From contig JBAZJW010000002.1 in NCBI GenBank assembly GCA_041651055.1, positions 26,980 to 90,979 on the forward strand: 64,000 nucleotides of DNA. The letters run 5' to 3'. The notes under the pieces were generated by a model that did not search any database, was not told the origin of the DNA, and worked only from the letters and a program-made list of their open reading frames with translations. Below are positions 22,311 to 60,988 of this stretch, in pieces; the stretch's first letter is position 1; each line of letters begins with the position of its first letter. The translations under genes were made by a program, and so were the position numbers. The DNA is from Minisyncoccota bacterium (lineage in GTDB: Bacteria; Patescibacteriota; Minisyncoccia; Phycocordibacterales; UBA5272).

Positions 22311-22613
22311 ATGAACCCAATACAGTCCGCCATCAAGGCGCTGTCCGAAAGCAAACACATAGTACGTGGTATAGAAGTGGGTGATACATTAGTAGCAATC
22401 GATGATCATGTGGTGGGTGGTGGTCCTGGGCAGCCAGAGGTTTTTGTGTCTGCTGGTGAACATGTGCGTGTCAAAGAAATACACGATGCTTCAGTTACTG
22501 TAAAGTTGGTAGATCGCACAGAATTGGAAAAAGAGTGGGGCAAGTATGAAGTCAACCGCGTTGATTTAGATCTGTCTGATCTTGACCATTATGTGGATGC
22601 CAAGGTATACTAA
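22311..22613 (+). CDS. Leader-family protein (MNPIQSAIKALSES)
   Basis: RBS aaggag; carries the shared N-terminal motif. Confidence 0.5.
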   Translation: MNPIQSAIKALSESKHIVRGIEVGDTLVAIDDHVVGGGPGQPEVFVSAGEHVRVKEIHDASVTVKLVDRTELEKEWGKYEVNRVDLDLSDLDHYVDAKVY

Positions 22614-22625
22614 AAGGAGTAATTC

Positions 22626-22886: not shown

Positions 22887-22889
22887 CGG

Positions 22890-23600: not shown

Positions 23601-24343
23601 TGTTTGTATCAGCCAAATTGCGTAATGAGTTGAGGTCCGTAAAGGACCTGCTTACCATGTCTAACGCTGACAAGGGTTTTGATCTGGCTGTGATGGATCC
23701 AAACATGTTTCTTACCTGGTACAGAAAAAATGTTGGTGAAGCAAACTTTGAGGATGAACAGCAGTTCATTGAAAGTTTGTATGCAACGGATAAATCGGTG
23801 TTAGGTAACTATTTCGATGATGGAGATGTGCGGTACAGTTTGCTTAATGATCCTGATGCACCACCTTTTTTGTTTATGGACTTTGAAGAAGCTGTCTTTA
23901 ATAAATGGATGATTCATTTTACGGATAGTGCGTATAATGTGGCTTTGAAAGGCTTTAAATACGGCACACCAAATTTGGAGAGTTTGCCCTATACGAGACA
24001 TACTCCACAGAAATATAAAACGGGTGGGTATAACTTTGCGTATGATTTGGATGATCTGCACTATGCTTTTACGGGTAAAGGTACTAAGTATGGAAAAGAA
24101 GCGGTAATGTTTCAAGCTACTGGTATAAAAGTATATCATCACGGTGATGAAGAGCCGCAGGTAATATTTTGGGGTGAAACCGCCAGGAATTTTGTACCAA
24201 TCCTTGTCAATGGTGATACAGACGATTGGGCTGTTGGAGAAGACAAAGAAGGTTTTCCGGTATACCATCACGAAAGTTTAGATAAGGTCGTGGATTGGGT
24301 GGTAGCCAATTTCAATCAATACAAGGGAGTCTTAATAGTATGA
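23597..24343 (+). CDS. Hypothetical protein
   Basis: ORF overlapping the upstream stop. Confidence 0.5.
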   Translation: MMFVSAKLRNELRSVKDLLTMSNADKGFDLAVMDPNMFLTWYRKNVGEANFEDEQQFIESLYATDKSVLGNYFDDGDVRYSLLNDPDAPPFLFMDFEEAVFNKWMIHFTDSAYNVALKGFKYGTPNLESLPYTRHTPQKYKTGGYNFAYDLDDLHYAFTGKGTKYGKEAVMFQATGIKVYHHGDEEPQVIFWGETARNFVPILVNGDTDDWAVGEDKEGFPVYHHESLDKVVDWVVANFNQYKGVLIV

Positions 24344-24600
24344 ATTCTGTACATCAAGCTATTCGAGTTTTGTCCCGTACTTTGTTTTGGGTAACTGATA
24401 AGTATGGATTTTTCACCACTGCAGTAGACAGCCTGGTAGCTGATCGAATCGTCAAGAGATTTGGACTTAATAAGGATCATGATTTTCACCACGCAGATCG
24501 TTACGAAGGTAAGGGCATGGAAGTCATGAAAGATAAAGGGAGTTGCCGCGTGACCGCCTACAATGAAAAAGCCAAGAGACTCATAGAGGATGTACTGTGA
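24340..24600 (+). CDS. Leader-family protein (MNSVHQAIRVLSRT)
   Basis: ATG overlaps the upstream stop; carries the shared N-terminal motif. Confidence 0.45.
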   Translation: MNSVHQAIRVLSRTLFWVTDKYGFFTTAVDSLVADRIVKRFGLNKDHDFHHADRYEGKGMEVMKDKGSCRVTAYNEKAKRLIEDVL

Positions 24601-24657
24601 TGTAGGTGTTGTGCCCACATCGGGTATAATAAACGTAAACGATAAGAGGAGATTGTA

Positions 24658-25497: not shown

Positions 25498-25504
25498 GTG
25501 TGAC

Positions 25505-25729
25505 ATGCCATTGGATCCTAAAACCAGGAAACTGTTGAGAAGCGTTGCTGAAGCGAGACGTGTGTTAGGTATCTTAGAAGAAGCTATCATGCACAATGAA
25601 ATTACTGCTGGTGTATTAAATCAGTACATGGATTTTGATGTGTTTGATAGAGAGGTTGATGGCATATTAGATGATGTTGCTGGGTGGATAAATGATGCAT
25701 TTGAAGATATGTCTAGATCGGAGGGCTAA
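25505..25729 (+). CDS. Hypothetical acidic protein
   Basis: ORF. Confidence 0.4.
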   Translation: MPLDPKTRKLLRSVAEARRVLGILEEAIMHNEITAGVLNQYMDFDVFDREVDGILDDVAGWINDAFEDMSRSEG

Positions 25730-25730
25730 T

Positions 25731-26051
25731 ATGAAGTCTATAGACAAAGCGGTGCAAGTCATTGGACAAGAGCGCAGACACAGCATGCCTGCTAATATAC
25801 CAAGTGGTTGGGACCAGGCTTGGCTGGCGGGGTTTTTGAAGGAAATAGAAGCGCACTATGATTCGGTGCAGGAGTTTCAAAGGAGCATAGATGCTGTGCT
25901 GCAAGAGTTAGACAGCAGTGATGAAAGACTTGGTGTTGGAGCGTATTTGAAAAGTCTTATGGCTGCAGCCAGCAAGTTTGAGGATGCATTGGAAACTGCA
26001 CACAATTTCTTGAACGTGGATCCAGAACACACTGGTATACCTATAGACTGA
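25731..26051 (+). CDS. Leader-family protein (MKSIDKAVQVIGQE)
   Basis: ATG immediately after the upstream stop. Confidence 0.45.
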   Translation: MKSIDKAVQVIGQERRHSMPANIPSGWDQAWLAGFLKEIEAHYDSVQEFQRSIDAVLQELDSSDERLGVGAYLKSLMAAASKFEDALETAHNFLNVDPEHTGIPID

Positions 26052-26059
26052 GGTGTGTT

Positions 26060-26308
26060 GTGGGTGCTTACCTTAACAAAGCAGTAAAGGTTTTGAGCGG
26101 TGTTCCTGCCATACTGTATTCTCACCCCGAGATTCGGGATTATTACAGAAAAAATGATGAAAAGGTGGTTACTGCTTGGGGAGCTTTATCTGGGCCTGCA
26201 CACGGCATGCGCATTTATGTACAAACAAGGAGCCCAGAACGCATAGATACCTGGAGTCATGAGAAAGGGTTTTGGCATATCGTAGACACACGTAAAGTGG
26301 ATGTGTAG
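26060..26308 (+). CDS. Leader-family protein (MGAYLNKAVKVLSGV)
   Basis: GTG start with RBS gaggtg. Confidence 0.45.
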   Translation: MGAYLNKAVKVLSGVPAILYSHPEIRDYYRKNDEKVVTAWGALSGPAHGMRIYVQTRSPERIDTWSHEKGFWHIVDTRKVDV

Positions 26309-26504
26309 TGTGGGTCTGCATCGAGAGTTTGTGGTATCTGAACCATGTGGGCCTGGTGGATATGACTGTGCGTGCTGTTACGATGGTAGGTCCGGTAAGC
26401 GTGGTGCCAAGAAACACAAGCGTTGTAACCATGCGCGTAAAAGTGGTTTGAGACAAAGAGCAAAGCAAGAAACTGCACGAGATACACTTTGAGATCGGAT
26501 CGAA

Positions 26505-27260
26505 ATGCTTTCTGAGTCACAAAAAGGTATCACCAAGGATGAGTTGATCCTCATCTATGAACTCATGTACAAGTGGGGTATGATACAATCTTATGAGCGT
26601 GAACATGGGTATTTACCAGATCATGTGCTGCGATATGCCACGAAGATAGAGTCTGATCTTAGGTTTCACATAAAGCAAGGATTAGAAGCACTCATAGAAG
26701 CATGCGAGGCGTGGATAGAATATCACACATTTGACCAAGATGGTTGGTATGTGGACATTTTAGAAATTGATTCATTGAAAGAACAGATCAAACACGCTAT
26801 GGCAACTTTGTTGATAGACAGGCACGATGTACTGAAGGTCATAAAAAAGCTGATACCTGTGTACTTAAATGGATATAATGAAAAAGACCTGTGGTCGATA
26901 GTGCATCAATTAGAAGATGAAATAAAAGCTATTCATAAAGAGTTTTTTTATGAACTTTCTGAAGATGAGTATAAACACTGGATGAATCACCCAGTAGTTA
27001 AATCGATAGTGCACATGAAAAATAGCTTACAAATACATACTGATGATTTAGGTGATTTAGTATCTGCTTTTAATAGAGGAGTGTCAACAGCACACCACCA
27101 CGGTCAATTAGGTGAGTATATTTTGAAAGACTCCGGTCCACAAATTTTTGATGATCTCTCTTCAGGCAAGTACACAGGACAGTGGGACAAAGACTTGGAA
27201 AAGATCTTAGGTAGGAAAGTGTCAACCTTAATCCTCGCTGCTATAAAGGAGCTGACCTGA
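26505..27260 (+). CDS. Hypothetical protein, paralog of the 30723 gene
   Basis: WIEYHTFDQDGW aligns with WVDFHTFEGSLEH; similar C-terminus ...LAAIKELT versus LAINVLGET. Confidence 0.5.
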   Translation: MLSESQKGITKDELILIYELMYKWGMIQSYEREHGYLPDHVLRYATKIESDLRFHIKQGLEALIEACEAWIEYHTFDQDGWYVDILEIDSLKEQIKHAMATLLIDRHDVLKVIKKLIPVYLNGYNEKDLWSIVHQLEDEIKAIHKEFFYELSEDEYKHWMNHPVVKSIVHMKNSLQIHTDDLGDLVSAFNRGVSTAHHHGQLGEYILKDSGPQIFDDLSSGKYTGQWDKDLEKILGRKVSTLILAAIKELT

Positions 27261-27262
27261 TC

Positions 27263-27496
27263 ATGGACATCGATGTCGTTTTGTTTGAAAATCTGGGTAA
27301 AAATGGAGATCTAGAGAGCCTGGAGATAAATTATTGCATTGGAAAGAGAGAGGCTACGCTATATTTAGACAAAGATGAAGTCGATGGTTTATATCGATTG
27401 CAGCAGTGTGATAAAATAGACGAGTTAGAAGATGTGCAAGTAAAAGATACTATTTATGAAGAAGTGTTGCACTACGTAGAAAACATGAAAGGGTAA
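27263..27496 (+). CDS. Hypothetical acidic protein
   Basis: ORF; its 3' end lies inside repeat A. Confidence 0.45.
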   Translation: MDIDVVLFENLGKNGDLESLEINYCIGKREATLYLDKDEVDGLYRLQQCDKIDELEDVQVKDTIYEEVLHYVENMKG

Positions 27497-27527
27497 AGAC
27501 ATGAACTGGTTGAAAAAAGCAGTGGGT
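27407..27527 (+). repeat. Direct repeat A, copy 1 (about 115 bp, near-identical to 28082-28195)
   Basis: gataaaatagacgagttagaagatgtgcaagtaaaagatactatttatgaagaagtgttg...catgaactggttgaaaaaagc. Confidence 0.8.
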
Positions 27528-28001
27528 GTATTGGGTGTGGATATGCACGATAAATTCAGACAGAACGTTGAAAGCGGTAAGTGGTTGATAATGAAAATAC
27601 CACTCTACGCTCGTCGTTTTCTGGATAACAAACTTGGTAAATTATTTCCATATTATGCTAGTGAACGTCCACAACTGCCTTCTGCTGGAAAACCAGTTAC
27701 ATCGTGGACCCTACCAAGTGGTTCTAGTGTTCCGTGTCTGGTATTTTTGCCAGGAGACGAAGACATAGCTATGCAATACTTAGATGAGGCCAAGAAATCC
27801 CGAACCCAAGAAACCGAAGAGGGTGCGATTGGGGCAGTTGATAGGGCAATTGCTGTATGGGAACAAAATGGTCCCTTTTTACTAAAAGAGATAACTAATG
27901 CTGGGGACACAAAAATAGTAGCACAGGAACTGCGCAAAGCGGGGTTTGAAATGCGTGCTCTTCCAATGTATGGCAGCCCTAGAGTGTGGTATAAAAGATG
28001 A
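27501..28001 (+). CDS. Leader-family protein (MNWLKKAVGVLGV)
   Basis: ORF carrying the shared N-terminal motif. Confidence 0.5.
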   Translation: MNWLKKAVGVLGVDMHDKFRQNVESGKWLIMKIPLYARRFLDNKLGKLFPYYASERPQLPSAGKPVTSWTLPSGSSVPCLVFLPGDEDIAMQYLDEAKKSRTQETEEGAIGAVDRAIAVWEQNGPFLLKEITNAGDTKIVAQELRKAGFEMRALPMYGSPRVWYKR

Positions 28002-28002
28002 T

Positions 28003-28092
28003 TATCAAGGCGCAAGAAGTCCTTCCAGTCAACGTGGCTATCACTGATACTACTCAGTTGCAAGACGTGTTTGAGAGCAGTGTGGTAAAATA
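28003..28092 (+). pseudogene. Truncated remnant of the N-terminus of the 28476 gene (MIIKAQEVLPVNVAITDTTQLQDVFESSVVK*)
   Basis: Contains repeat B copy 1; nucleotide-level match to 28486-28553. Confidence 0.5.
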
Positions 28093-28195
28093 GATGAGTT
28101 AGAAGATGTGCAAGTAAAAGATACTATTTATGAAGAAGTGTTGGCTTATACTGAAAACATGAAAGGTAAATTGACATGAACTGGTTGAAAAAAGC
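28082..28195 (+). repeat. Direct repeat A, copy 2
   Basis: Near-identical to 27407-27527. Confidence 0.8.
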
Positions 28196-28475
28196 CATTG
28201 AAGAAATGGACAAATATGCTGATTTGTTTGTGGTGTCATACGTTGTTAGAGATCCTGAGCGCGGAAATAGAAACAGTGGTGCTTACTTAGTGCGTGCCAA
28301 GTCTAAGCTGGACGCAATTCAAGTAGTAAAAAACATAGCAGAGGATTATTTTAGGGTTTCTGCCACACCGGCTGATAAATACTACCGAGATGATTATGAT
28401 AGCGTAGAAGAGGCTCTAGAGGGCAAGAAATTACCTGCAATGAATAAATACCTTCTCCTGTACAGTGGTACATAA
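28176..28475 (+). CDS. Leader-family protein (MNWLKKAIEEM), an alternative cassette
   Basis: Same first 7 codons as the 27501 gene, unrelated body. Confidence 0.5.
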   Translation: MNWLKKAIEEMDKYADLFVVSYVVRDPERGNRNSGAYLVRAKSKLDAIQVVKNIAEDYFRVSATPADKYYRDDYDSVEEALEGKKLPAMNKYLLLYSGT

Positions 28476-29949
28476 AATGAAGATTTCAGCGCAGGAAGTC
28501 CTTCCAGTCAATGTGGCTATCACTGATGTCACTCAGTTGCAAGACGTGTTTGAGCTGTCTTTAGATGAAGCCATGAATTTAGCTATGTCCAATACCCGCA
28601 ACGGTATCTTGAATACTGCGTGGTATGAAGGCATCTTGGCCAAGTTGGGTGAAATTGAACGCGATGCATTTACGCTAGGTTTGGCTTCGGCTGGTGTACA
28701 AGTCATCAACGAAGTAGAAGAGCTGCCCATACAAGCCAACGACGTAAAAGTGCAGGTCATAGACACTTCCACCAACAAAGTGATAGAAGAAACTACTGGT
28801 GACAACCAGGAAGAGCAAAAGTTCAAGGATTTGACAAATAAGTATCCTGACAAGAATAAGAATGTGGTGCAAGTCGTAGACAATACCACCAAAAAGGTGA
28901 TGAAGTCTAACGCCAGCCTTGGGTATAATGCCCTTCAAGAAAAAATACTTATAGCTACTGACAAGCTGTCTGTGCTGAAGCGGGCTGGTAAGTCCGTGTC
29001 TTTAGAAGAAGTAGATGTCATCCTGGGCGACCTACCTGGTTGGGCCGTGGAATGTGTACGTGATAGAGTAAAAGACGTAAAAAAAGACGTGCGCAAGAAC
29101 AAGAGACAGGTCCATAAGACTGACAGAGAAGAGTCTGATTACCAGAAAGATGTGAGGAAGATCATGCAAAAGCCGAACATAAAAGACGTAAAAGGTGGCA
29201 GAGATGACGGGTTGAGCGCCGGTACCCGCAATGCCTTGATGATCATTGAGAATGATAAGAAATTTTTGGACCTGGCACTTAGTATCATTGCAGATGGTGG
29301 TTGGGAAAGTGAATTGTTCAAGGCTTTTGATGATGTGGTGGGCGGCAATTTACCAGCGTATGCGCGCAGTAGTGTGGTGGACTGGAAATTCGTAGCAGAG
29401 TATCTAAGGAAAGAATGCTCCACATCTTTGTTTGAGGAGGATGCTTGTGATGTGAAGCGCATGGAACCAGGCAGGGACGAGTGGCACCACGGCGCTCTAG
29501 ACGTAGATGCTGATCATCTTGAGCAGGAAAAGCGCGAGCTAGAAGATATAGTGATGAAGCGTCAAGATGAACTACCTAATTGGAAGAAACTGCTTGATAA
29601 AATCAAGAGAGCACTGTCTATCTCTGAGGTACGTGAAGTGTGGGACGACGTAAAAGACACGGCTACTATAGCTGAAAGTGAGGCTTGTGACATGACTGCA
29701 AAGAGAGCGCAATTGGAAGAGGATCAAGAAGACTTTGATGAGGGTGAAGACTTGAAGGAGACTGACCCAGAGACTTGGATCGCTGAGAGTTACATCAATG
29801 GCAATTTGCAAGACATCAAGCATGAGTTGAAGAGCATGCAGCCTATGGAAGCCATTTCATTGGCCATAGCTGCCTATTACTACCTGTTGGACATGGATCG
29901 CAAAGAGGCCGGTGCCTACTTGCGCTGGCTCATGAGGACAGGCGCTTGA
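28476..29949 (+). CDS. Large acidic coiled-coil protein (candidate internal virion protein)
   Basis: ORF of about 490 aa; N-terminus MKISAQEVLPVNVAITD lies in repeat B copy 2. Confidence 0.55.
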
Positions 29950-30425
29950 TAGTACGTGCTTCACAAGTCTTGGGTGCTGGCAAGAGGTTTTTGCTATATG
30001 CACATCTTACTTTGACAGGCAGAGCACCCAAAGTGTTGAAGGTACTTAGTGAAGAGCAACGTGATGGATATGTAATCAGAAAAGAGATGTGGGACACAGC
30101 CGGTCTTGTGCCAGAGCCCATGGAGATGATTACGTGTTACACACCGTCTGGTGATTGGATAGGTGAGGAAAAGACAGCCAAATTTTTGGTAGAAGAGATG
30201 GGCATAGCTCCTGAACTGTCAGACCCAGATCATTCAGTGTGCAGCACAGGATTTTGTGCCAAAGAAAATAGATGGTACGGGTGGTCACACCGCGCCATCC
30301 ACGGATTTGGTGTAGGTGATAAGTTTGAAGAGTGGTACCCAGAAGGCGGAGTTGAAGGTAAAAAGATAGAAACACTAGAAGAGGCAAGGGCTGCTGCTAA
30401 AGCCTTTGCTGAATCAGTAAGCTGA
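29946..30425 (+). CDS. Hypothetical protein
   Basis: ORF. Confidence 0.5.
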   Translation: MIVRASQVLGAGKRFLLYAHLTLTGRAPKVLKVLSEEQRDGYVIRKEMWDTAGLVPEPMEMITCYTPSGDWIGEEKTAKFLVEEMGIAPELSDPDHSVCSTGFCAKENRWYGWSHRAIHGFGVGDKFEEWYPEGGVEGKKIETLEEARAAAKAFAESVS

Positions 30426-30433
30426 GGTGTTGT

Positions 30434-30718
30434 ATGAGTTCCTTTCACATTGAAAATCTGAAAGAAGATTTGCAGTATTTTACTAGGGAGTTCAAAAAAG
30501 TGATGTCACAGGTAGATGCTGCATCGCACACCTTAGATCAAGTGATGAGCGAAGTGAATAACAGCATCGGGCATGCAAATAGATATGAGACACAAACACG
30601 TAGCATGCAAGAGTCAAGGGAGATAGCCCACTTTTCTGAGAAGTTAGAGACTTTGGCCCTGCAAATGGACCGTGTAGCTAAATTACTTGACGATGCTGTA
30701 TTATCTACGGTAAAATGA
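30434..30718 (+). CDS. Hypothetical protein
   Basis: ORF. Confidence 0.45.
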   Translation: MSSFHIENLKEDLQYFTREFKKVMSQVDAASHTLDQVMSEVNNSIGHANRYETQTRSMQESREIAHFSEKLETLALQMDRVAKLLDDAVLSTVK

Positions 30719-30722
30719 TATG

Positions 30723-31514
30723 ATGGTATTGGGCGCATACGGTGATCCTATAAATCAACAACAGTTTGTTTCTTTGTGTGAGCGTGCAGACGAGTTGCAT
30801 GCTAAGCTGGGTTACGCTTATGTCATCAAAAGAAAGACTGGGTGGTTGTCAGATTCAGCTATGTCTTATGTTGGTAAGATGGAGCAAGAATTAGATTTAA
30901 CATTAAACCAGATCTTTGACTTGGTGAAGGAATCATTAGATATGTGGGTGGATTTTCATACATTTGAAGGATCGTTAGAACACATACTGGGTGGTGTCGC
31001 GTCTGGATTAGATGCTGAATACTGGTACAATCAATTTACTGAGTGGGTGGGGTCACAACCAGCACTGGACAGACTCATTTATTCAGCCACCAAGCACACA
31101 GAATCACATGCCACGTGGGCGTATGAATCTTTTGATCATGCCTTTAATAAAGATAAAAATACATTCATCAAGATTTGGAAGCGGGTATACCCGTATTTTA
31201 TGAAAAGCTACCCAAGCCTAAACAAAGCTTTGGTCAATACACAAAACGTGTTATCAGAAATGCAGTCTCCTCCCGCAGATTTGATGGATAAGGCTGCTTT
31301 ATACCAAAAGTTTATGAATCTGGTACATTCTACTGGCCCAATGTTAGAGCACATACTTGAGGATGATAGCATGGCCAGGAAAGTGATGGATGATTTAGCA
31401 CACAATCGTTATATAAACGATACTGAGTGGAAGAAGGAAGTAGAAAATAAGTTGGGGAGTAAAGTGGCTACTAGGTATCTGGTGTTGGCAATAAACGTGT
31501 TGGGTGAAACATGA
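30723..31514 (+). CDS. Hypothetical protein, paralog of the 26505 gene
   Basis: See the 26505 entry. Confidence 0.5.
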   Translation: MVLGAYGDPINQQQFVSLCERADELHAKLGYAYVIKRKTGWLSDSAMSYVGKMEQELDLTLNQIFDLVKESLDMWVDFHTFEGSLEHILGGVASGLDAEYWYNQFTEWVGSQPALDRLIYSATKHTESHATWAYESFDHAFNKDKNTFIKIWKRVYPYFMKSYPSLNKALVNTQNVLSEMQSPPADLMDKAALYQKFMNLVHSTGPMLEHILEDDSMARKVMDDLAHNRYINDTEWKKEVENKLGSKVATRYLVLAINVLGET

Positions 31515-31996: not shown

Positions 31997-32117
31997 TTAT
32001 ACTACACTGTGCAAGATTGTAGTATAATCATACCTATAAAACTCGTTGGTTAATAGCCTCATCCTCCAACCCAGTACAATATAAGGCGCGTATAACCTTA
32101 CCAAGAGGTAGGATTCT

Positions 32118-33389: not shown

Positions 33390-33393
33390 AGAC

Positions 33394-33930
33394 ATGAAGT
33401 CACTAGTAAAAGCAATAAGAGTGTTATCAGGGACACAAACACTAAAACAGTGGATTGGTAATACTACTTCTGAAAAATATAGTATCCCTGCTGGTGAAGC
33501 ACCGTCTTCCGCGCCCAAAGATCCGAAAGATGCTGCATATAAATTGATGACTAAAGATGAAATTTTAAAAACATTTGATGGAGATGCACAAGGCAACCTC
33601 GATTTGAATTACGATAGGTGGATCGCTGCAGATGATTCTGCTAATGCACCCAGTGTCATATACCAAACTCAGGGCAGAGATAAAACCGGTGCTTTGAACA
33701 AGCGTGCTAGTAGAGACAGCAAAGAGTGGGAGAAGTGGGAGTTTTTGAAAGAAGTGATGGGTGTTGAAGCCCTGTTATATGAAGTGTTGATAGGTATGAG
33801 CAACAAAGAAGCTGAGGATATGATTGAGTGGATAGCTCGTATGCATGACATCCACGATCCAATACTGGGTGATGAACCAGAAGAAGATGAGGCTGAGGAA
33901 GAGGAAGACACCGAAGACGAGGAAGAGTAA
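33394..33930 (+). CDS. Leader-family protein (MKSLVKAIRVLSGT) with poly-acidic C-terminus
   Basis: ORF; junction sequence gaaagggtaaagacATGAA shared with 27486. Confidence 0.5.
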   Translation: MKSLVKAIRVLSGTQTLKQWIGNTTSEKYSIPAGEAPSSAPKDPKDAAYKLMTKDEILKTFDGDAQGNLDLNYDRWIAADDSANAPSVIYQTQGRDKTGALNKRASRDSKEWEKWEFLKEVMGVEALLYEVLIGMSNKEAEDMIEWIARMHDIHDPILGDEPEEDEAEEEEDTEDEEE

Positions 33931-33931
33931 C

Positions 33932-34123: not shown

Positions 34124-34124
34124 C

Positions 34125-34424: not shown

Positions 34425-34695
34425 ATCCTTGAGTGCTCCTATAAAATACAAGATTTATACTTTAGACGAAGACGGTAAGTTGCGCTTTAAGAAAAAGGGT
34501 AACGGCTTGTTTTATGTGCCTGAGGTGAACAAGTCAGTGGTGGACATAGGAGATCATATCACACTTGATTTAGGTGATACACAGATATTTATAGAGTTAG
34601 CATCATTCAAGGCGGTGTGCGCTGCTTTTATGAACAAGAAAGAGACGAAGAAAAACATAGTACAATTGAAAGTCGTAAATGGAGGAAAGACATGA
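34408..34695 (+). CDS. Hypothetical protein
   Basis: ORF; the start is uncertain. Confidence 0.4.
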   Translation: MSWGGRSLSAPIKYKIYTLDEDGKLRFKKKGNGLFYVPEVNKSVVDIGDHITLDLGDTQIFIELASFKAVCAAFMNKKETKKNIVQLKVVNGGKT

Positions 34696-35330
34696 ATTTT
34701 ATAGCGAAAGCTGTTGATGTATTAGCTGGTTCGAAAGAGAAGCAATTGATCAACAAAATTGTCAAGAAAATTGATGGTGAATTTGCCAGGTATCTGTGGT
34801 CTGATTTGTGGACTCACTTTGATGAGGAACAAATAGAGGAGTATGCTGACAAATTTGGCATTAAATACACTGGTAACCCCTCTGAAACTATTGATATGAT
34901 TAGTGGTAAAACTTCTGACGATGAAATAAAACAAAACCTAAAGGAACTGTTGACTAACATCTATGATTTAGATATGTTGGTGGCACTGTGGGGAGATGTG
35001 GGTGGTGATGTGGAACAGTATGAATCACAAACTGTGATAAACTTAAAAAAGGAACTGGAAGACATTGGTGTTCCTGTTAAAAATGTCTATTTAAGTGATG
35101 ATGCAAGTGCAAGGTTTTCCAATTCTTTTTACATAATAATAGATACTGTAGCTGATACAGAAACTTTATCAAAAATAAAAGATTTTGTGCGCAACTTAGA
35201 TGGAAATGCAAAATTTAAGGAAATCGTGTACAACAATAAACCTGCTAAAGAGGGTGAATATTACCGTTTAGTGTGTGATATTAATAAGAGTGCAATGAAA
35301 AAATTGAAAATGCGAGGAGGTCTTCTATGA
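34692..35330 (+). CDS. Leader-family protein (MNFIAKAVDVLAGS)
   Basis: RBS ggagga. Confidence 0.5.
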   Translation: MNFIAKAVDVLAGSKEKQLINKIVKKIDGEFARYLWSDLWTHFDEEQIEEYADKFGIKYTGNPSETIDMISGKTSDDEIKQNLKELLTNIYDLDMLVALWGDVGGDVEQYESQTVINLKKELEDIGVPVKNVYLSDDASARFSNSFYIIIDTVADTETLSKIKDFVRNLDGNAKFKEIVYNNKPAKEGEYYRLVCDINKSAMKKLKMRGGLL

Positions 35331-35590
35331 AGCTGTATTACGATGTCATCTCGAAGATGTACTCTTTGGAGACTGAGCAGGGACCTGAATTCCTGGGTCC
35401 CTTTGCTCATACCCTGCTCAAGTTGAAGCAGGCTGGTTTGACTGAAGACCAGTCACGTGAAGCCGTGCTCAAAGCCATGTTTGGCTACGGTCGAGCGATT
35501 TGCTTAGACGCTGTTATAGCTGATAATTTAGTGGGTGGGTTGAAAGCCGTACATAATCATACGTACGGAAAGGACAAGGCTGATGAATAA
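35327..35590 (+). CDS. Hypothetical protein
   Basis: ORF; the C-terminal 20 codons are repeated at 36296-36356. Confidence 0.45.
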   Translation: MKLYYDVISKMYSLETEQGPEFLGPFAHTLLKLKQAGLTEDQSREAVLKAMFGYGRAICLDAVIADNLVGGLKAVHNHTYGKDKADE

Positions 35591-36278
35591 CTATCTGTTC
35601 CGTGCAATCGCTCAGTTGAAGGAGTATGTAAGTCCAAGTGTAAAGACACAAGTACCTTTTACTATATCAGAAGAACATCCGCTACCAGTACAAGTGTTAC
35701 CTAAGGATGAAGAATGCATACTAAAATTTATAAATAAAGAAGAGTGCGAAGGTGAGTATGTTACGTCAAGAAGAGACAGCATAGGAACACTAGAATTGTT
35801 GGTTGATGGGTGGCACGTAGCACAATGGTACCGTCGTAAGATACTTACTGTACCACCAGACACCGAATTAGAGGGTTATCAAAAGAAAGTGGTGGATTTT
35901 TTGAAGGAAGTAGGGGGACTACGTGTAAAGGACTGGAGAAGCGTTAAAGAAGAAAGCCCCGGCCAGCAAATACCATATTATATGGGCATGCAGTTTGATA
36001 GATCGCTAAATAAACGCAGTGCACAGAACATAATGAACAGCATACTGCGCAATTTGCCGGATGGGTTTATGGTGTATAAGGGCAGAGTCGATTACGGACC
36101 GTGGGATGGAAAAGTATATACTTTATACGATAAGATACTTGCTTCTGTTATTGGTGTACTTGTTCGTAAAGATAGTAAGCATAAAATAAAGGAATTTATG
36201 AATGCAGTTAACTCTATGGATGGTGTAACTGAAGCATACTTACTTAGAGACATAGATCACAACATGCTTGATGTGTGA
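35583..36278 (+). CDS. Leader-variant protein (MNNYLFRAIAQLKEY)
   Basis: ATGAATAA overlap with the upstream stop. Confidence 0.5.
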   Translation: MNNYLFRAIAQLKEYVSPSVKTQVPFTISEEHPLPVQVLPKDEECILKFINKEECEGEYVTSRRDSIGTLELLVDGWHVAQWYRRKILTVPPDTELEGYQKKVVDFLKEVGGLRVKDWRSVKEESPGQQIPYYMGMQFDRSLNKRSAQNIMNSILRNLPDGFMVYKGRVDYGPWDGKVYTLYDKILASVIGVLVRKDSKHKIKEFMNAVNSMDGVTEAYLLRDIDHNMLDV

Positions 36279-36873: not shown

Positions 36874-38751
36874 GTGGCAGACAAGGATAAGAAAAAGCCC
36901 ACCAACAGCAGCGCTATCATAGTTAAGGCCAGTGATTTTAGGGACAACCCTGACGAAGGCAAGATTGAAGGCCAAAAGGATATGGTTTATGGTCGATACC
37001 GAAGCATAGCCAGTGTCAATCGCCGTGGATCTTATACTGGCGCTCCCACTTCTACCTCGCAGCAATCCACTGCGATGGTGCCTATTTACTACGATTACCG
37101 GTTTTCTACACCAGACAAGTACTACTTTCCCAAAGACCGGTTCAATGCCAACTCTACGTGGCGTGATATCTATCGACGCGACGCCACCATCGGTATCGCC
37201 ACTGACATGTATTCGGAGTTGCCGTGGTCCGACTTTGATATAGAAGCTGTAGACGACCCTAAGATACAGCAGTGTTATGAAGATATGTTTACCGATTTGG
37301 CTTTGGCCCCACAAATGCCTTTGTTTTCAAAGGACTTTCTAATACACGGAGAGTTCGTAGGGCACTCCCTGTTCAATGAAACTAAGGGGTACTGGGACCG
37401 GATCATCTCCCACAACCCAGATTATGTGAAAGTCATGGGTGTGGGTTTAGCTTCAGCACAGCCATTATGCTGGTTGCGTCCTACTCCTGACTTTGTGCGT
37501 CTTATGAACACTCCAGATCCTCGGGTACGCAAGTACTTGAATACTATCCCTGGTGAAGTGCTGCGCTCGTTTAAGATGGGCAAGGAAGTGTACCTTGAGC
37601 CCATGAATACTACGTACATGCCTCGCAAAAACACTTCACAAGAGGTGCGCGGTATATCTGTTTATACTCGTTTGTTCCGCATTAACATGTACGAAGATTT
37701 CGTGATGAATGCTTCACTGTCCATAGCCCAACGCAATGCGGCTCCATTGCGCTTGTTCAAGATGGGTGATGTCTCCAGACCTGATGGTTGGATGCCGGGT
37801 GCAGAAGACATACAAGCATTTACCAATTTGTTGGCTACATCGGAGACAGATCCGTTTGCGGCGCTAATCACTCACCCGTACATCACCGTAGACTATGTGG
37901 GTGTAAGCGATAAAGTACTGCTGATTTCCCGAGAGTGGGAGTTTATTGAGCGTGTGAAGCTGCTAGCATTTGGTGTGTCAAAAGCATTTCTGGTCGGGGA
38001 GACATCTTTTGCATCGAGCGTAGCAGGTTTGCAGACTTTGCTTGAGCGCCTGGCTAACTTTAGGCTGATGTTTGAAGTCAATCTGATGCGTGACAAACTG
38101 GCTAAGCCAGTAGCCGAGATGAACGATTTTTATGAGCATTCCCAGGCGGAGCTGGACCATAGAGTGCGGGTCAAGAACAAAGCTGAGCGCAGGTTGGTGC
38201 TACCCACTTTCAAGTGGAAGAAAAGCCTTGAACCGACTCAAGATCAATCCTTGATGAACACTTGGCGCGACTACAAAGAGCGTGGTTTGATCTCTGATAA
38301 GACTTATTTGGCTGGTGGTGGTGTAGATATAGAGATTGAAAGACGCAATCTCATTGAAGAGATAGAGTACAAAGAGAAGATGATCGAGGAAGGCAAGATT
38401 CAGCCTCCTGGCATGGAAGGTGAAGAGGGCATGGGTGGTGGTCTTGGCGGTGAAGAGCCGGGGTTGCCTCCGCCTCCGGGCGCACACAGGATGCGTGGCG
38501 TTCATCCAAACTTTCCACGTCGATTGCCGTCTATGAGGCACTGGGCGAAAAAGTTGATGGATGACTACACCCCAGGAGATGAGTTAGATTCAAGTAGGAT
38601 GAGTGTAGACCAAGCCATGGATAGATTTAGCAAGTTGAGTCCAAGGGCTAGGAAACAGTTGCTGCACGAGATCAAAAACAAGGTGCCGTCACAAGAGCCA
38701 TACATGCTGAATGGTGCCGTGCGGACGGCAAGGAAGAAGCCACATGAATAA
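36874..38751 (+). CDS. Large virion-type protein, possibly the portal (size and position only)
   Basis: GTG start with RBS; 625 aa; Gly-rich C-terminal segment; no diagnostic motif recognised. Confidence 0.45.
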   Translation: MADKDKKKPTNSSAIIVKASDFRDNPDEGKIEGQKDMVYGRYRSIASVNRRGSYTGAPTSTSQQSTAMVPIYYDYRFSTPDKYYFPKDRFNANSTWRDIYRRDATIGIATDMYSELPWSDFDIEAVDDPKIQQCYEDMFTDLALAPQMPLFSKDFLIHGEFVGHSLFNETKGYWDRIISHNPDYVKVMGVGLASAQPLCWLRPTPDFVRLMNTPDPRVRKYLNTIPGEVLRSFKMGKEVYLEPMNTTYMPRKNTSQEVRGISVYTRLFRINMYEDFVMNASLSIAQRNAAPLRLFKMGDVSRPDGWMPGAEDIQAFTNLLATSETDPFAALITHPYITVDYVGVSDKVLLISREWEFIERVKLLAFGVSKAFLVGETSFASSVAGLQTLLERLANFRLMFEVNLMRDKLAKPVAEMNDFYEHSQAELDHRVRVKNKAERRLVLPTFKWKKSLEPTQDQSLMNTWRDYKERGLISDKTYLAGGGVDIEIERRNLIEEIEYKEKMIEEGKIQPPGMEGEEGMGGGLGGEEPGLPPPPGAHRMRGVHPNFPRRLPSMRHWAKKLMDDYTPGDELDSSRMSVDQAMDRFSKLSPRARKQLLHEIKNKVPSQEPYMLNGAVRTARKKPHE

Positions 38752-39187
38752 ATACCTTCTACGTGCAATAGCACAGTTGAAAAAGTATTTGGAACCGGAG
38801 GTTAGAACACTTCGGACCAGCCCCGCAATTGAAAAAATAGAAAGTCCCAGAAAGACCATTGAGTATTTTACAGACAGCATCAGTTCTGGGGAAGGAAGCC
38901 TAGATATGGACTCTTCTGAATTTGAAGTGGTTTTTACCGGAGGGTGGTCAAAAGAAGACGATGAGATGATATCAAACATGATACAATCTTCTGGTATTGG
39001 TTGGGAAGAATATCACATAACAAACGCTAGTACGATCTATGTTAATAACAGAAAGAATGCTAACAAAATATTTGAACTAGTTTATGAACAATATAAGGAA
39101 CGGGGATATGACGAATTCATATTGCAAACTGCTTCAGGAGTACTTATTAAAACCAAAGATTCTATCGGACCAAGACAAATAGAGTAA
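38744..39187 (+). CDS. Leader-variant protein (MNKYLLRAIAQLKKY)
   Basis: ATGAATAA overlap with the upstream stop; leader paralogous to the 35583 gene. Confidence 0.5.
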   Translation: MNKYLLRAIAQLKKYLEPEVRTLRTSPAIEKIESPRKTIEYFTDSISSGEGSLDMDSSEFEVVFTGGWSKEDDEMISNMIQSSGIGWEEYHITNASTIYVNNRKNANKIFELVYEQYKERGYDEFILQTASGVLIKTKDSIGPRQIE

Positions 39188-40435: not shown

Positions 40436-40837
40436 ATGAGTAACATTGCAAAAGCTATTGAAGTACTGGCTGGCGAGACCAGGGTGTGGAATTGGAATGA
40501 GATCGGGATGGAGTGGACATCAGCCTTGGTTGGTGTCTCTCCTACGGATTCTGGTGACAAGATTAGTATTATGTATGATGTAGCTATTGGTAATTTAGAC
40601 GAGAGTTTGATTGATTGGAGCAATAAAGATGGAATGTATGGTTTAGAGAACACAGACTTCTGGGGTTTGCCTGTTAAAGATGATAAGGTTGGCAATTTTA
40701 GGGTGTTACACACTCCATGTCAAGATGGTCATGTAGATCAAGCATTGTTGGTAGTGGGGCCTAAATCTGCCAAAGAAGCACAACAGGCTGCTATGAAGGC
40801 AGGGTACGGTGAATGGTTTGAAGATTTGCAAGAATAG
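40436..40837 (+). CDS. Leader-family protein (MSNIAKAIEVLAGE)
   Basis: ORF. Confidence 0.5.
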   Translation: MSNIAKAIEVLAGETRVWNWNEIGMEWTSALVGVSPTDSGDKISIMYDVAIGNLDESLIDWSNKDGMYGLENTDFWGLPVKDDKVGNFRVLHTPCQDGHVDQALLVVGPKSAKEAQQAAMKAGYGEWFEDLQE

Positions 40838-41344: not shown

Positions 41345-41764
41345 ATGAAAAAGATGATAGTAAAAGCTATTGACATGCTATCTGTAAATGGTAGTTCTCA
41401 AGAAATAACTGAAGAAGACATAGCCAAGGTGGTTGGGTCCAAACCAGATCACTTTGAAACTGGGATGCATGATAATTCTGTGTATGCAGCTTATTTCAAC
41501 ACCTCTATGAAGCGTTCCCCTAAAGGAATTCATGCCGATGGTGAGTATGGTGAAATATTTATAGATAAAAATGCTCATGTTTATGTTGGTATCTTCAATC
41601 CAGAGTATGATGAGAGTGATGAATACGATGAAGACGAAGATCTTCCAGAACAGCAATTTAATTTTTTCCATGGTACATATCCTGGTACCACAGTACACAG
41701 TTTAGCTGAACTAGAAGAGGTTTGGAACAGCGACGATTGGCACCAGGGCGATCTCACATTGTGA
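41345..41764 (+). CDS. Leader-family protein (MKKMIVKAIDMLSV)
   Basis: ORF; an alternative start at 41330 is possible. Confidence 0.5.
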   Translation: MKKMIVKAIDMLSVNGSSQEITEEDIAKVVGSKPDHFETGMHDNSVYAAYFNTSMKRSPKGIHADGEYGEIFIDKNAHVYVGIFNPEYDESDEYDEDEDLPEQQFNFFHGTYPGTTVHSLAELEEVWNSDDWHQGDLTL

Positions 41765-60507: not shown

Positions 60508-60583
60508 TAATACTTTACAATTGAACGTGACTTTTTAAAAATAGAAAATGATGATGAATTCTAAAACGTGAAAGGTGAAAGCC

Positions 60584-60988
60584 ATGATAGTGAAAGCGAT
60601 AGAAGTACTGAGCATATGTAAAACTGCAAAGAAATTTACAGTTTATGTTTTTCATACTCGTGGTGATATCTATCCAGAACATGAAGAAGAAGTACAAGCC
60701 ACAAATCTTGAAAGTGCATGTAAACAGGTTTCTGATAAATTTGGTTATAAATGGATAGGAAAATCAAAAGGTAATTATGGATTTTTTGCCGTAGATGTTG
60801 ATTATTTCAATGAATGGCACGGTAAATATCACGATACACGCAAAAATAAAAAAGAAGATTTAGAAAAGGAACTAAATGAATCTATAGAAACAATAAAATC
60901 CGGCAGAGACGATGAATTTCGTGGTTTGATGTGTCTTTGTGATGATTACAATGCCTATGGTGCCAATGAAGAAGACGACGATGACTAA
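60584..60988 (+). CDS. Leader-family protein (MIVKAIEVLSIC) with acidic C-terminus
   Basis: RBS aaaggtga; flanked by 15-bp direct repeats. Confidence 0.5.
   Translation: MIVKAIEVLSICKTAKKFTVYVFHTRGDIYPEHEEEVQATNLESACKQVSDKFGYKWIGKSKGNYGFFAVDVDYFNEWHGKYHDTRKNKKEDLEKELNESIETIKSGRDDEFRGLMCLCDDYNAYGANEEDDDD

What the first reader, a model, noticed from the sequence alone, without database searches (positions are those of the whole stretch)
27407..28553. Tandem cassette duplication with a swapped gene body and a truncated gene remnant
Repeat A (27407-27527 versus 28082-28195, about 115 bp, near-identical) spans the 3' end of the 27263 gene plus the first 8 codons (MNWLKKA) of the downstream gene. 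Repeat B (28008-28075 versus 28486-28553) is the 5' end of the 494-aa gene.

The resulting layout is A / 166-aa gene / B-remnant (pseudogene 28003-28092) / A / 99-aa gene / B / intact 494-aa gene. The two MNWLKKA genes have unrelated bodies, so this is a slot in which alternative cargo genes have been exchanged by recombination at the leader-coding junction.
Basis: seen in the sequence. Interest (0 to 1): 0.65.

Follow-up and report, generated by a model that had tools for sequence, protein, structure and literature searches.

The report
Two-gene recombination scar in phage head module
In the head-gene region of an uncultivated large phage, two unrelated small genes that start with the same seven codons sit in tandem, each flanked by diverged copies of the neighbouring genes' ends; this is a recombination scar, and both genes belong to a set of at least a dozen orphan genes sharing an N-terminal leader that may be a sorting signal.

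Summary
Repeat A is 27402-27520 versus 28076-28195 (109/121, 90%). Repeat B is 27986-28075 versus 28465-28554 (76/90, 84%). The layout is A1 / X (166 aa) / B1 remnant | A2 remnant / Y (99 aa) / B2 + intact 490-aa gene.

It is not an assembly artefact. The longest exact repeat is 48 nt, against a final k of 141. A second assembly (k=31) breaks exactly at the edges of that 48-mer.

The copies are diverged, by silent changes plus whole-codon replacements, and the B1|A2 junction has no microhomology. The simplest origin is an illegitimate crossover between two diverged relatives carrying X or Y in the same slot.

Wider context:
- The window is a phage head module (terminase, portal, protease, major capsid protein).
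- A relative with a 55%-identical portal has the same backbone but none of the small genes.
- X and Y belong to at least 12 orphan genes starting M-x-x-[LI]-x-K-A-[IV]-x-V-L-[SA]-G. The motif is conserved at protein level with varied codons.
- The X/Y breakpoint lies inside this leader.
- X's only homolog sits in a T4-like phage and carries a T4-CTS-like N-terminus instead.

I infer, without proof, a capsid-targeting-type leader that also serves as a recombination handle.

The parts
27263..27496 (+). 77-aa gene upstream of the slot; its last 31 codons form the coding part of repeat A1
   Evidence: ORF list; called as a 77-aa gene in the source contig; no homolog in the related phage L021/L022
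27402..27520 (+). Repeat A1: 3' end of the 77-aa gene + SD GAAAGG + stop + ATG + first 7 codons (MNWLKKA) of X
   Evidence: 90% identical to A2; 48-nt and 23-nt exact runs
27501..28001 (+). Cargo gene X, 166 aa, leader MNWLKKAVGVLG; body-specific DNA 27521-27985
   Evidence: only itself in the 5.8-billion-protein search; one distant homolog P0004 in a T4-like phage contig
27986..28075 (+). Repeat B1: translation-initiation region + first 26 codons of a 490-aa-type gene (truncated copy)
   Evidence: 84% identical to B2
27998..28093 (+). Remnant ORF, 31 codons (MIIKAQEVLPVNVAITDTTQLQDVFE + SSVVK*); ATG overlaps the stop of X (ATGA)
   Evidence: not annotated in the NCBI record, where locus tags run WC444_04620/04625/04630
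28075..28076 (+). Novel junction B1|A2 (…GTGTTTGAG|AGCAGTGTGG…), with no usable microhomology
   Evidence: read directly
28076..28195 (+). Repeat A2: untranslated 3' remnant of a 77-aa-type gene (…CGKIDELEDVQVKDTIYEEVLAYTENMKGKLT*) that still supplies the SD and start for Y, plus MNWLKKA
   Evidence: frame closed upstream by TGA 28072-28074
28176..28475 (+). Cargo gene Y, 99 aa, leader MNWLKKAIEEMD; body-specific DNA 28196-28464
   Evidence: only itself in the protein search; AF2 single-sequence model pLDDT 67, alpha/beta fold with leader as helix 3-14; no fold match
28465..28554 (+). Repeat B2: initiation region + first 26 codons of the intact 490-aa gene
28477..29949 (+). 490-aa backbone head-module gene (MKISAQEV…); its N-terminal 76 aa are 45% identical to a 1045-aa protein at the same position in the related phage
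29946..30425 (+). Neighbour: Tad6 (type I Thoeris inhibitor) homolog
   Evidence: Pfam PF25188, E 3.9e-39, 134.5 bits against a cut-off of 27
22311..22613 (+). Leader-family gene (MNPIQSAIKALSES)
24340..24600 (+). Leader-family gene (MNSVHQAIRVLSRT)
   Evidence: (called as 86 aa)
25731..26051 (+). Leader-family gene (MKSIDKAVQVIGQE); this start was chosen by me, the gene caller uses 25692
26060..26308 (+). Leader-family gene (MGAYLNKAVKVLSG)
33394..33930 (+). Leader-family gene (MKSLVKAIRVLSG); its initiation region GAAAGGGTAAAGACATGAA is identical over 19 nt to that of X
   Evidence: (D3)
34692..35330 (+). Leader-family gene (MNFIAKAVDVLAGS)
   Evidence: (called as 212 aa)
35583..36278 (+). 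Variant-leader gene (MNNYLFRAIAQLKEYV); shares initiation region + 22 codons with 38744, body unrelated
38744..39187 (+). Variant-leader gene (MNKYLLRAIAQLKKYL)
40436..40837 (+). Leader-family gene (MSNIAKAIEVLAGE); paralog of the C-terminal part of ORF 39190-40374, which carries an internal leader near 39469
41345..41764 (+). Leader-family gene (MKKMIVKAIDMLS)
60575..60988 (+). Leader-family gene just past the major capsid gene (MKAMIVKAIEVLS; gene caller starts at MIVKAIEVLS)

Best explanation
The locus is the scar of one illegitimate (non-homologous) crossover between two diverged relatives of a large phage. Each relative carried a different small gene, X or Y, in the same slot between the 77-aa gene and the 490-aa head-module gene.

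The crossover joined codon 26 of the 490-type gene of the X parent to codon ~47 of the 77-type gene of the Y parent. The product keeps both cargo genes: 77 - X - [5' stump of 490'] | [3' stump of 77'] - Y - 490. The 3' stump survives because it supplies the ribosome-binding site and start context of Y.

Before that event, X and Y had become alternatives in the slot through exchanges bounded in two places. On the left, the boundary lies inside the coding sequence of a shared N-terminal leader, after codon 7. On the right, it lies 12 nt upstream of the start of the 490-aa gene.

The leader (M-x-x-[LI]-x-K-A-[IV]-x-V-L-[SA]-G) is carried by at least 12 otherwise unrelated orphan genes. These genes have been inserted between backbone genes of the head module.

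Shown:
- The anatomy of the locus.
- The divergence of the flank copies.
- That the contig is real.
- The head-module context.
- Protein-level conservation of the leader.
- Absence of these genes from a relative.

Inferred:
- The two-parent origin.
- That the leader is a sorting signal of the T4 capsid-targeting-sequence type, delivering varied cargo (possibly anti-defence proteins) into the prohead. I put this at about 0.35-0.4.
- That the leader's coding DNA doubles as a short homology handle for cargo exchange.

The direct repeats also let the tandem resolve back to either single-cargo form: A1xA2 deletes X, and B1xB2 deletes Y.
For: Anatomy and repeat extents.

Not an artefact:
- The source contig is a 183,779-bp MEGAHIT k141 contig, and the longest exact repeat is 48 nt.
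- The B1|A2 junction shares no k-mer path, so it must be present in reads.
- Two Logan (k=31) contigs of run SRR8542065 end at 27451 and start at 28114. These are the last and first 31-mers that hold an A1-specific or A2-specific base on either side of the 48-nt core. All four flank contexts are therefore in the reads.

Divergence pattern:
- In the frames of the 77-aa and 490-aa genes, six codons differ by one silent base.
- Four codons are replaced outright (CAC>GCT, GTA>ACT, AAG>TCA, ACT>GTC).
- There is no frameshift or stop inside either stump.
- This is what two functional orthologs look like, not a decaying duplicate.

Slot boundaries: homology ends at 27520/28195 and resumes at 27986/28465.

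Leader family:
- Strict motif KA[IV]x[VM]L: 7 N-terminal hits against 0.01 expected.
- Loose motif: 10 against 0.07 expected.
- There are 0 hits in minus-strand frames.
- Conserved residues use different synonymous codons among members.
- Bodies are not similar, and there are no Pfam or PHROG hits.

Recurrent sharing of initiation region plus leader at DNA level: 19-nt identity at 27486/33379, and the 35583/38744 pair.

Context:
- TerL, portal, head protease and major head protein.
- Relatives L021/L022 (portal 55%, TerL 46% identical) have TerL-to-portal in 6 kb with 5 backbone genes and no leader genes. The window has 16 kb with about 30 genes.
- The 490-aa gene is part of the backbone.

Cargo link:
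- X's only homolog, P0004, has the same length and the same W[YF]KR* end.
- It lacks this leader and starts MKLTDKLLTE, 10 residues ending L-x-E like the T4 CTS MKTYQEFIAE.
- Its phage encodes Peptidase_S77 and Gp23.
- It lies next to a gene with a similar N-terminus and two genes from Apyc1.

Known precedent: T-even internal proteins are diverse anti-restriction proteins that share only a conserved CTS (PMC3012670; PMC9026906).
Against: - No relative with a single-cargo allele (77-X-490 or 77-Y-490) was found, so the two-parent scenario is reconstructed from one genome.
- A two-step path, tandem duplication then replacement of one body, gives the same end state.
- The leader has no sequence similarity to the T4 CTS.
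- No common protease-cleavage site follows the leader; A-[IV]-E is present in only 4 of 12 members.
- Most leader proteins are acidic (pI 4.4-5), whereas T4 internal proteins are basic (my recollection).
- Y matches the leader consensus only partly (KAIEEMD).
- The CTS-like reading of P0004 rests on a short pattern that is common by chance.
- Clustering of leader genes near the portal could simply reflect local gene-family growth in a hyperplastic region.
Confidence: 0.68

Rival explanations
1. Two-step origin within one lineage. A microhomology-mediated tandem duplication of the segment 27402-28075 (as in T4 segmental amplifications) came first. Later one X copy, together with parts of its flanks, was replaced by Y through homologous exchange with a diverged relative.
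For: The final layout and the B-end|A-start junction are exactly what a tandem duplication gives. T4 readily makes tandem segmental amplifications of accessory genes (PMC9391042).
Against: T4-type amplifications have 6-10 bp microhomology at the junction; here there is none. Differences are spread over both flank copies, including next to the junction (28085, 28095), so no part of A2 or B1 looks like a recent identical copy. It also needs two events where one suffices.
Confidence: 0.18
2. Assembly artefact: a chimeric or mis-expanded contig made from two co-existing strain variants (77-X-490 and 77-Y-490).
For: The contig comes from a metagenome. A k=31 assembly breaks at the repeat. X is not listed from the Logan source.
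Against: The junction 28075|28076 joins sequences with no shared k-mer, so a de Bruijn graph cannot invent it. The longest exact repeat (48 nt) is far below k=141. The Logan contig ends at 27451 rather than 27469. This means the first shared k-mer has two predecessors, so the junction-proximal A2-left context exists in the reads. Repeat copies differ by 10-16%, unlike a collapse or expansion.
Confidence: 0.04
3. A programmed cassette-switching device (integron-, shufflon- or phase-variation-like) that alternates expression of X and Y.
For: There are two alternative genes with an identical start and duplicated flanks. Direct repeats could delete either gene.
Against: No recombinase domain was found in neighbouring genes. 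The repeats are direct and are simply the ends of the flanking genes. There are no inverted repeats in the locus and no stable RNA or DNA structure (z-scores +0.45 and -0.48). Promoter and terminator matches are not enriched. Both genes keep their own SD and start, so both are expressible at once.
Confidence: 0.03
4. The shared leader has no sorting role. It could be an N-terminal amphipathic helix used for something else (membrane or partner docking, oligomerisation, stability). Alternatively it could be a footprint of repeated recombination at a favoured translation-initiation region, with the small genes being ordinary early or accessory genes that happen to accumulate in a hyperplastic zone.
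For: The leader is predicted helical and amphipathic. Several members share SD-spacer-ATG DNA. No conserved cleavage site follows the leader. The bodies are mostly acidic.
Against: Conserved residues are encoded by varied synonymous codons, so a pure DNA footprint is excluded for the family as a whole. Twelve of 13 members lie in the 20 kb around the portal and one lies next to the capsid gene. None lies in the 18 kb upstream of TerL or the 9 kb downstream. X's homolog carries a different, T4-CTS-like N-terminus in a T4-like phage.
Confidence: 0.35

Closest known systems
T-even phage internal proteins and their capsid targeting sequence (CTS; IPI/IPII/IPIII, Alt)
   Same: Both have a short conserved N-terminal leader on otherwise unrelated small proteins in a phage that has a prohead protease and a scaffold-like protein. 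In T-even phages the cargo genes are lineage-variable and linked to counter-defence (PMC3012670, PMC9026906). Here, cargo exchange is bounded inside the leader-coding DNA, and an anti-defence gene (Tad6) is a neighbour.
   Different: There is no sequence similarity to MKTYQEFIAE. No conserved L/I-x-E site follows the leader. The genes are embedded in the head module, and most cargo proteins are acidic. The phage is not T4-like: its nearest portal in GenBank is Virus Rctr197k at 36.6%, followed by jumbo phages. Packaging is untested.
PeSL-mediated modular shuffling in hyperplastic regions of T4-type phages (Arbiol et al. 2010, PMC2839356; PMC4122927)
   Same: Orphan genes are inserted, deleted or replaced between short conserved cassettes that recur through a hyperplastic region. 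Recombination between the cassettes drives the change.
   Different: PeSLs are non-coding promoter plus stem-loop terminator units. Here the recurring element is a ribosome-binding site plus a protein-coding leader. No promoter, terminator or hairpin signal was found.
Tandem segmental amplification of accessory or counter-defence genes in T4 (dmd-tifA; PMC9391042)
   Same: A head-to-tail arrangement with a novel junction between the end and the start of the repeated unit, in an accessory region near counter-defence genes. Such structures can collapse again by recombination.
   Different: T4 amplicons are identical copies of the same gene with 6-10 bp junction microhomology. Here only the flanks are repeated, they are 10-16% diverged, the bodies differ, and the junction has no microhomology.
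Processed ejection-protein paralogs of giant phages (SPN3US gp53/gp54, phiKZ inner-body proteins)
   Same: Head-internal proteins in families with identical or similar N-terminal propeptides, with numbers varying between relatives and an AXE cleavage motif (PMC5694885). Here the 490-, 423- and 94-aa proteins start MKxxAQE|V, and the capsid protein has ASE at 43-45.
   Different: Those families are true paralogs with similar bodies and long propeptides. Here the bodies are unrelated and the leader is about 13 aa. No homology to pfam12699-type proteins was seen.

Membership tests
T4-type capsid targeting sequence / internal protein system | Short conserved N-terminal sequence shared by otherwise unrelated small phage proteins | tested here: met
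   At least 12 genes; strict motif 7 N-terminal hits against 0.01 expected; bodies dissimilar
T4-type capsid targeting sequence / internal protein system | Sequence similarity of the leader to the T4 CTS (MKTYQEFIAE) | tested here: not met
   The consensus MxxLxKA[IV]xVL[SA]G is unlike the CTS quoted in PMC8442874
T4-type capsid targeting sequence / internal protein system | Prohead-protease cleavage site (L/I-x-E) at the end of the leader | tested here: inconclusive
   A-[IV]-E in 4 of 12 members; other members have R/K/G/Q/D at that position; the protease type is unassigned (no Pfam or PDB hit)
T4-type capsid targeting sequence / internal protein system | Phage encodes a prohead protease and a scaffold/core onto which the leader docks | tested here: met
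   Head maturation protease phrog_18299 E 5e-30; adjacent very acidic 467-aa protein; MCP and portal. Docking itself was not tested.
T4-type capsid targeting sequence / internal protein system | Proteins physically packaged in the capsid and ejected into the host | not testable with these tools
   Uncultivated metagenomic phage; needs virion proteomics
Tandem segmental amplification by microhomology (T4 tifA type) | Identical head-to-tail copies of one segment | tested here: not met
   Only the flanks are repeated (90% and 84% identical); the bodies are unrelated
Tandem segmental amplification by microhomology (T4 tifA type) | 6-10 bp microhomology retained once at the junction | tested here: not met
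   Junction GTTTGAG|AGCAGTG compared with A1 upstream GATTGC and B2 downstream CTGTC: no shared stretch
PeSL regulatory cassettes | Sigma-70-like promoter plus stem-loop terminator flanking the orphan gene | tested here: not met
   Promoter-like 14 against 15.3 expected, terminator-like 6 against 4.5 expected, none in the repeats on the + strand; fold z-scores about 0
Integron / shufflon / invertible cassette systems | Adjacent site-specific recombinase and structured or inverted recombination sites | tested here: not met
   No recombinase domains in the locus; no inverted repeats between 27200 and 28600
Tad6 (type I Thoeris inhibitor), neighbouring gene 29946-30425 | Pfam PF25188 above the gathering threshold | tested here: met
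   134.5 bits against a cut-off of 27, E 3.9e-39, profile positions 5-145 of 145; activity not tested

The most novel reading that the evidence does not exclude
The KA[IV]xVL[SA]G leader is a previously undescribed capsid-targeting (or other virion-sorting) signal. It marks an expanded, fast-turning-over arsenal of at least 12 orphan cargo proteins, plausibly counter-defence effectors co-injected with the DNA. Its coding sequence acts as a portable homology handle that lets unrelated genes be plugged into expression-ready slots in the head module. On this reading the X/Y tandem is a caught-in-the-act intermediate holding both alleles of one slot.
Probability: 0.3. Interest if true: 0.75.

Novelty: new variant of a known kind. 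Interest (0 to 1): 0.55.

Why it matters
Taken alone, the scar is a clean, datable example of how phages gain accessory genes without losing any. An unequal crossover between two alleles of a slot leaves stumps of both neighbours, and the surviving stump is the one that provides a ribosome-binding site.

The more useful result is the leader family. If the leader is a sorting signal, it tags a dozen proteins of unknown function as probable virion-delivered effectors in a lineage with no cultivated member. It would also give a simple sequence rule for finding such cargo in metagenomic phages. Finally, it would extend the T4 principle of a conserved targeting peptide with interchangeable cargo to an unrelated large phage. 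The neighbouring Tad6 gene, and the Apyc1 gene near X's homolog, make counter-defence roles a testable guess.

Tried and rejected
Searches for relatives that found nothing useful:
- Megablast and tblastn of the locus and the 490-aa protein against GenBank phages: no match.
- 490-aa protein, X and Y against 5.8 billion proteins: each finds only itself.
- The search for related loci with the 490-aa protein in IMG/VR: nothing.
- Degenerate leader DNA pattern in IMG/VR: two chance hits in 63%-GC contigs.
- GAC+MNWLKKA pattern: 0 hits in IMG/VR, and 11 unrelated hits in JGI metagenomes with no tblastx similarity to the window.

Function of the genes:
- Pfam and PHROGs on X, Y, the 77-aa gene and all leader genes: no significant family.
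- AF2 model of X: pLDDT 38, unusable.

Hypotheses tested and dropped:
- X as a paralog of the 178-aa leader gene at 33394: rejected.
- Leader genes as one diverged paralog family: body-only BLAST finds only the 39466/40436 pair.
- An RNA element in the repeats: no.
- Head module of Virus Rctr197k (portal 36.6%): no leader motif.
- Protease type: no Pfam or PDB match.
- 4464 (MTLVAKAIEFAKIAHGDQKYG) and 6407 (membrane-like) were dropped from the family as probable false positives.
Full report
OBSERVATION

- Repeat A is 27402-27520 versus 28076-28195. It has 109 matches in 121 aligned columns, with small indels in the stop/spacer stretch. It contains an exact 48-nt run (27422-27469 = 28096-28143) and an exact 23-nt run, GACATGAACTGGTTGAAAAAAGC.
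- Repeat B is 27986-28075 versus 28465-28554, 76/90 identical.
- The 23-mer occurs exactly twice in the window, against none in 100 shuffles.

A covers the last 31 codons of the 77-aa gene (27263-27496), the GAAAGG ribosome-binding site, and the first seven codons (MNWLKKA) of the downstream gene. B begins 12 nt upstream of the ATG (28477) of the 490-aa gene and covers its first 26 codons.

The order is A1 / X (166 aa, 27501-28001) / B1 | A2 / Y (99 aa, 28176-28475) / B2 + intact gene (28477-29949). The novel junction is at 28075|28076.
- B1 is an open 31-codon stump (27998-28093). Its ATG overlaps the stop of X.
- A2 is an untranslated 3' stump of a 77-aa-type gene. Its frame is closed by TGA at 28072-28074.
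- X and Y share nothing beyond the seven codons.

IS IT REAL?

The window comes from a 183,779-bp MEGAHIT contig (ENA ERZ27247363, k141_3129229). The longest exact repeat (48 nt) is much shorter than k=141. The B1|A2 junction joins sequences with no shared k-mers, so a graph traversal cannot have created it.

Two Logan contigs (k=31) from run SRR8542065 cover the same phage. One ends at window position 27451 and the other starts at 28114. These are exactly the last 31-mer containing the last A1-specific base before the 48-nt core, and the first 31-mer containing the first A2-specific base after it. The graph therefore branches on both sides of the core. This requires the A2-left context, which exists only next to the junction, and the A1-right context both to be in those reads.

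I could not establish whether that run is independent of the ENA assembly. The 10-16% divergence of the copies is itself incompatible with collapse or expansion. I rate an artefact at about 0.04.

HOW THE LAYOUT AROSE

In the reading frames of the 77-aa and 490-aa genes, the copies differ in two ways:
- Six codons differ by single silent changes: GAC/GAT, TAC/TAT, GGG/GGT, ATC/ATT, CAA/CAG, AAC/AAT.
- Four codons are replaced outright: CAC>GCT, GTA>ACT, AAG>TCA, ACT>GTC.

There is no frameshift or stop inside either stump. That is the pattern of two orthologs that diverged while functional, not of a recent duplicate decaying.

An outgroup (see below) starts MKISAQ like B2, so B1's MIIKAQ is the derived state. 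The junction has no microhomology. This differs from the 6-10 bp found at T4 segmental amplifications (PMC9391042).

The most economical account is a single illegitimate crossover between two diverged co-infecting relatives, 77-X-490' and 77'-Y-490. It joined codon 26 of 490' to about codon 47 of 77'. A duplication followed by replacement reaches the same state in two steps, and I give it about 0.18.

Either way the product holds both alleles of one slot. It can resolve to either single form by recombination between the direct repeats.

CONTEXT

PHROG profiles identify four head genes:
- large terminase, 18783-20699 (E 5e-65)
- portal, 36874-38751 (E 1e-79)
- head maturation protease, 54625-55485 (E 5e-30)
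- major head protein, 57731-58864 (E 5e-53)

All genes are on one strand. The NCBI record labels the contig as a Candidatus Paceibacterota MAG, which is evidently a binning error. The nearest GenBank portal is Virus Rctr197k (36.6%), followed by jumbo phages.

Two IMG/VR contigs (L021, L022) have a portal 55% and a terminase 46% identical to those of the window. Their terminase-to-portal interval is 6 kb with five genes, all of which have counterparts in the window:
- window 24658 (N-terminal 80 residues only)
- the 490-aa gene, whose N-terminal 76 aa are 45% identical to a 1045-aa protein
- the DUF192 gene at 31511
- the 423-aa gene at 32118
- the gene at 35327

In the window the same interval is 16 kb with about 30 genes. 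The 77-aa gene, X, Y and their small neighbours are therefore lineage-specific insertions between backbone head genes.

THE LEADER FAMILY

Listing all N-termini shows that MNWLKKA is one instance of a recurring start, M-x-x-[LI]-x-K-A-[IV]-x-[VM]-L-[SA]-G. Members are:
- 22311, 24340, 25731, 26060
- X (MNWLKKAVGVLG) and Y (MNWLKKAIEEMD, a partial fit)
- 33394, 34692, 40436, 41345, 60575
- a variant pair, 35583/38744 (MN.YL.RAIAQLK.Y)
- an internal copy inside ORF 39190-40374

Statistics:
- The strict pattern KA[IV]x[VM]L occurs 7 times within the first 12 residues, against 0.01 expected.
- It occurs once elsewhere: the internal copy, which is preceded by its own GAAAGG.
- It never occurs in minus-strand frames.

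Conserved residues use varied synonymous codons (Ala GCA/GCC/GCT/GCG; Leu TTG/TTA/CTG/CTA), so the constraint acts on the protein. The bodies are not similar to each other and hit no Pfam or PHROG family.

Twelve of 13 members lie between 22.3 and 41.8 kb around the portal, and one lies just after the capsid gene. None lies in the 18 kb upstream of the terminase or the 9 kb downstream of the window end.

Some members also share initiation-region DNA. The 19-mer GAAAGGGTAAAGACATGAA is identical at 27486 and 33379. The 35583/38744 pair shares about 85 nt spanning the SD and 22 codons.

The X/Y homology stops after codon 7, in the middle of the motif. Each gene then continues the motif with different DNA.

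WHAT THE LEADER MAY DO

The closest documented analogue is the T4 capsid targeting sequence. It is a 10-19-residue N-terminal propeptide that directs otherwise unrelated, lineage-variable internal proteins into the scaffolding core. Those proteins are ejected with the DNA and counter host restriction (PMC3012670; PMC9026906).

Three observations point the same way here:
- The genes are embedded in the head module.
- A Tad6 Thoeris-inhibitor homolog lies two genes downstream of Y.
- X has a single detectable homolog among 1.84 billion representatives, P0004 (E 4.7e-6; 31% over residues 79-166; same length; same W[YF]KR end).

P0004 lacks this leader and starts MKLTDKLLTE, ten residues ending L-x-E like T4's MKTYQEFIAE. 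Its contig encodes Peptidase_S77 and Gp23. The next gene starts MELTPLTRKLLGES with an unrelated body. Anti-Pycsar Apyc1 lies two genes away. A homologous cargo body thus carries a different, phage-appropriate N-terminus in each phage.

Against the analogy:
- There is no similarity to the T4 CTS.
- No conserved cleavage site follows the leader.
- Most cargo proteins are acidic.
- The L-x-E pattern is common by chance.

I put a capsid-targeting or similar virion-sorting role at about 0.35-0.4. The alternative, a docking or oligomerisation helix with no role in packaging, is about as likely.

RELATED OBSERVATION

The 490-, 423- and 94-aa proteins and the B1 stump start MK-x-x-AQE-V. AQE occurs only six times in the window proteome, and three of those are at residues 5-7. 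AXE, often AQE, is the cleavage motif of the SPN3US prohead protease (PMC5694885). The capsid protein here has ASE at 43-45, just before its profile match begins. This suggests, without showing, that repeat B encodes a short propeptide of a processed head protein.

COMPARISON AND NOVELTY

- The scar is a new example of a known process: mosaic gene gain in phage hyperplastic regions.
- It is not a T4-type amplification, because the copies are diverged, the bodies differ and there is no microhomology.
- It is not PeSL shuffling, because there is no promoter or terminator signal.
- It is not a programmed cassette system, because there is no recombinase and there are no inverted sites.
- The leader family works like the T4 CTS/internal-protein arrangement but fails the sequence test for membership, and its packaging is untested. 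I class the whole as a new variant of a known kind.

VERDICT

- Observation confirmed.
- Interest 0.55.

Noticed in passing
window 22311-41764 and 60575-60988: At least 12 small orphan genes share the N-terminal motif M-x-x-[LI]-x-K-A-[IV]-x-V-L-[SA]-G. It is conserved at protein level with varied codons, and the genes cluster around the portal gene. None is present in the related phage L021/L022.
   Followed up: yes
window 28477, 32118, 20774 (and remnant 27998): A second shared N-terminus, MK-x-x-AQE-V, occurs on the 490-, 423- and 94-aa proteins. AQE matches the AXE cleavage motif of giant-phage prohead proteases. The 94- and 423-aa genes also share an upstream element, GTATAAY..TAC.AAG..GTAGG.
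   Followed up: partly
window 39190-40374: This 394-aa ORF contains an internal leader (MKGAINKAIEVLAEK, near 39469). The leader is preceded by an 18-nt tandem duplication and by the 12-mer AACATGAAAGGT, identical to part of repeat A2. Residues 95-198 resemble the 133-aa leader gene at 40436. It may be a gene fusion or an internal start.
   Followed up: partly
window 35583-36278 and 38744-39187: Two genes share the ribosome-binding region plus the first 22 codons (15/22 aa identical, many silent differences) and then have unrelated bodies. This is an older analogue of the X/Y pair, on either side of the portal gene.
   Followed up: partly
window 29946-30425: Tad6 (Thoeris inhibitor) homolog. 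With the called TTG start (GAGGA SD) it has a 37-aa N-terminal extension, MIVRASQVLGAG…, that resembles the leader. An alternative GTG start at 30033 would remove it. A weak Tad6-like match in Yersinia phage YerA41 is annotated 'structural protein' (L026).
   Followed up: partly
window 26505-27260 and 30720-31514: The 251-aa and 264-aa proteins are paralogs (25% identity over 238 aa, E 4e-14) of unknown function. Both are absent from the related phage.
   Followed up: partly
whole window / source contig: The NCBI record names these proteins as a Candidatus Paceibacterota MAG (WC444_046xx). The contig encodes terminase, portal, head protease, major capsid protein and two tRNAs, so it is a large phage mis-binned as a bacterium.
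   Followed up: yes
window 17000-18000: ORF-poor stretch with 54% GC against about 42% around it, just upstream of the terminase block. No Rfam match at E <= 0.1.
   Followed up: partly
window 61024-62262 and 62900-64000: TnpB/Cas12f-like gene (OrfB_IS605 + TNB + HTH) right after the capsid block; the related phage also has one near its portal. The downstream region has minus-strand or poor ORFs and no Rfam hit for a guide RNA.
   Followed up: partly
window 46375-46605 versus 53749-53964, and 13942-14163 versus 53434-53640: Two further pairs of small paralogous genes (71% over 45 aa, with a 106-nt DNA repeat at 77%; and 43% over 65 aa).
   Followed up: no
L024 10001-11162 (ENA ERZ27275021 k141_992105): In a T4-like phage contig, the X homolog and the next gene share a CTS-like N-terminus (MKLTDKLLTES / MELTPLTRKLLGES) with unrelated bodies, two genes upstream of Anti-Pycsar Apyc1. 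This is a candidate internal-protein cluster.
   Followed up: partly
L020 (Virus Rctr197k, KX853510.1 33020-74348): Many head-module genes are annotated only as misc_feature 'similar to hypothetical protein', including a 6.5-kb one between terminase and portal. This may reflect interrupted frames or an alternative code.
   Followed up: no
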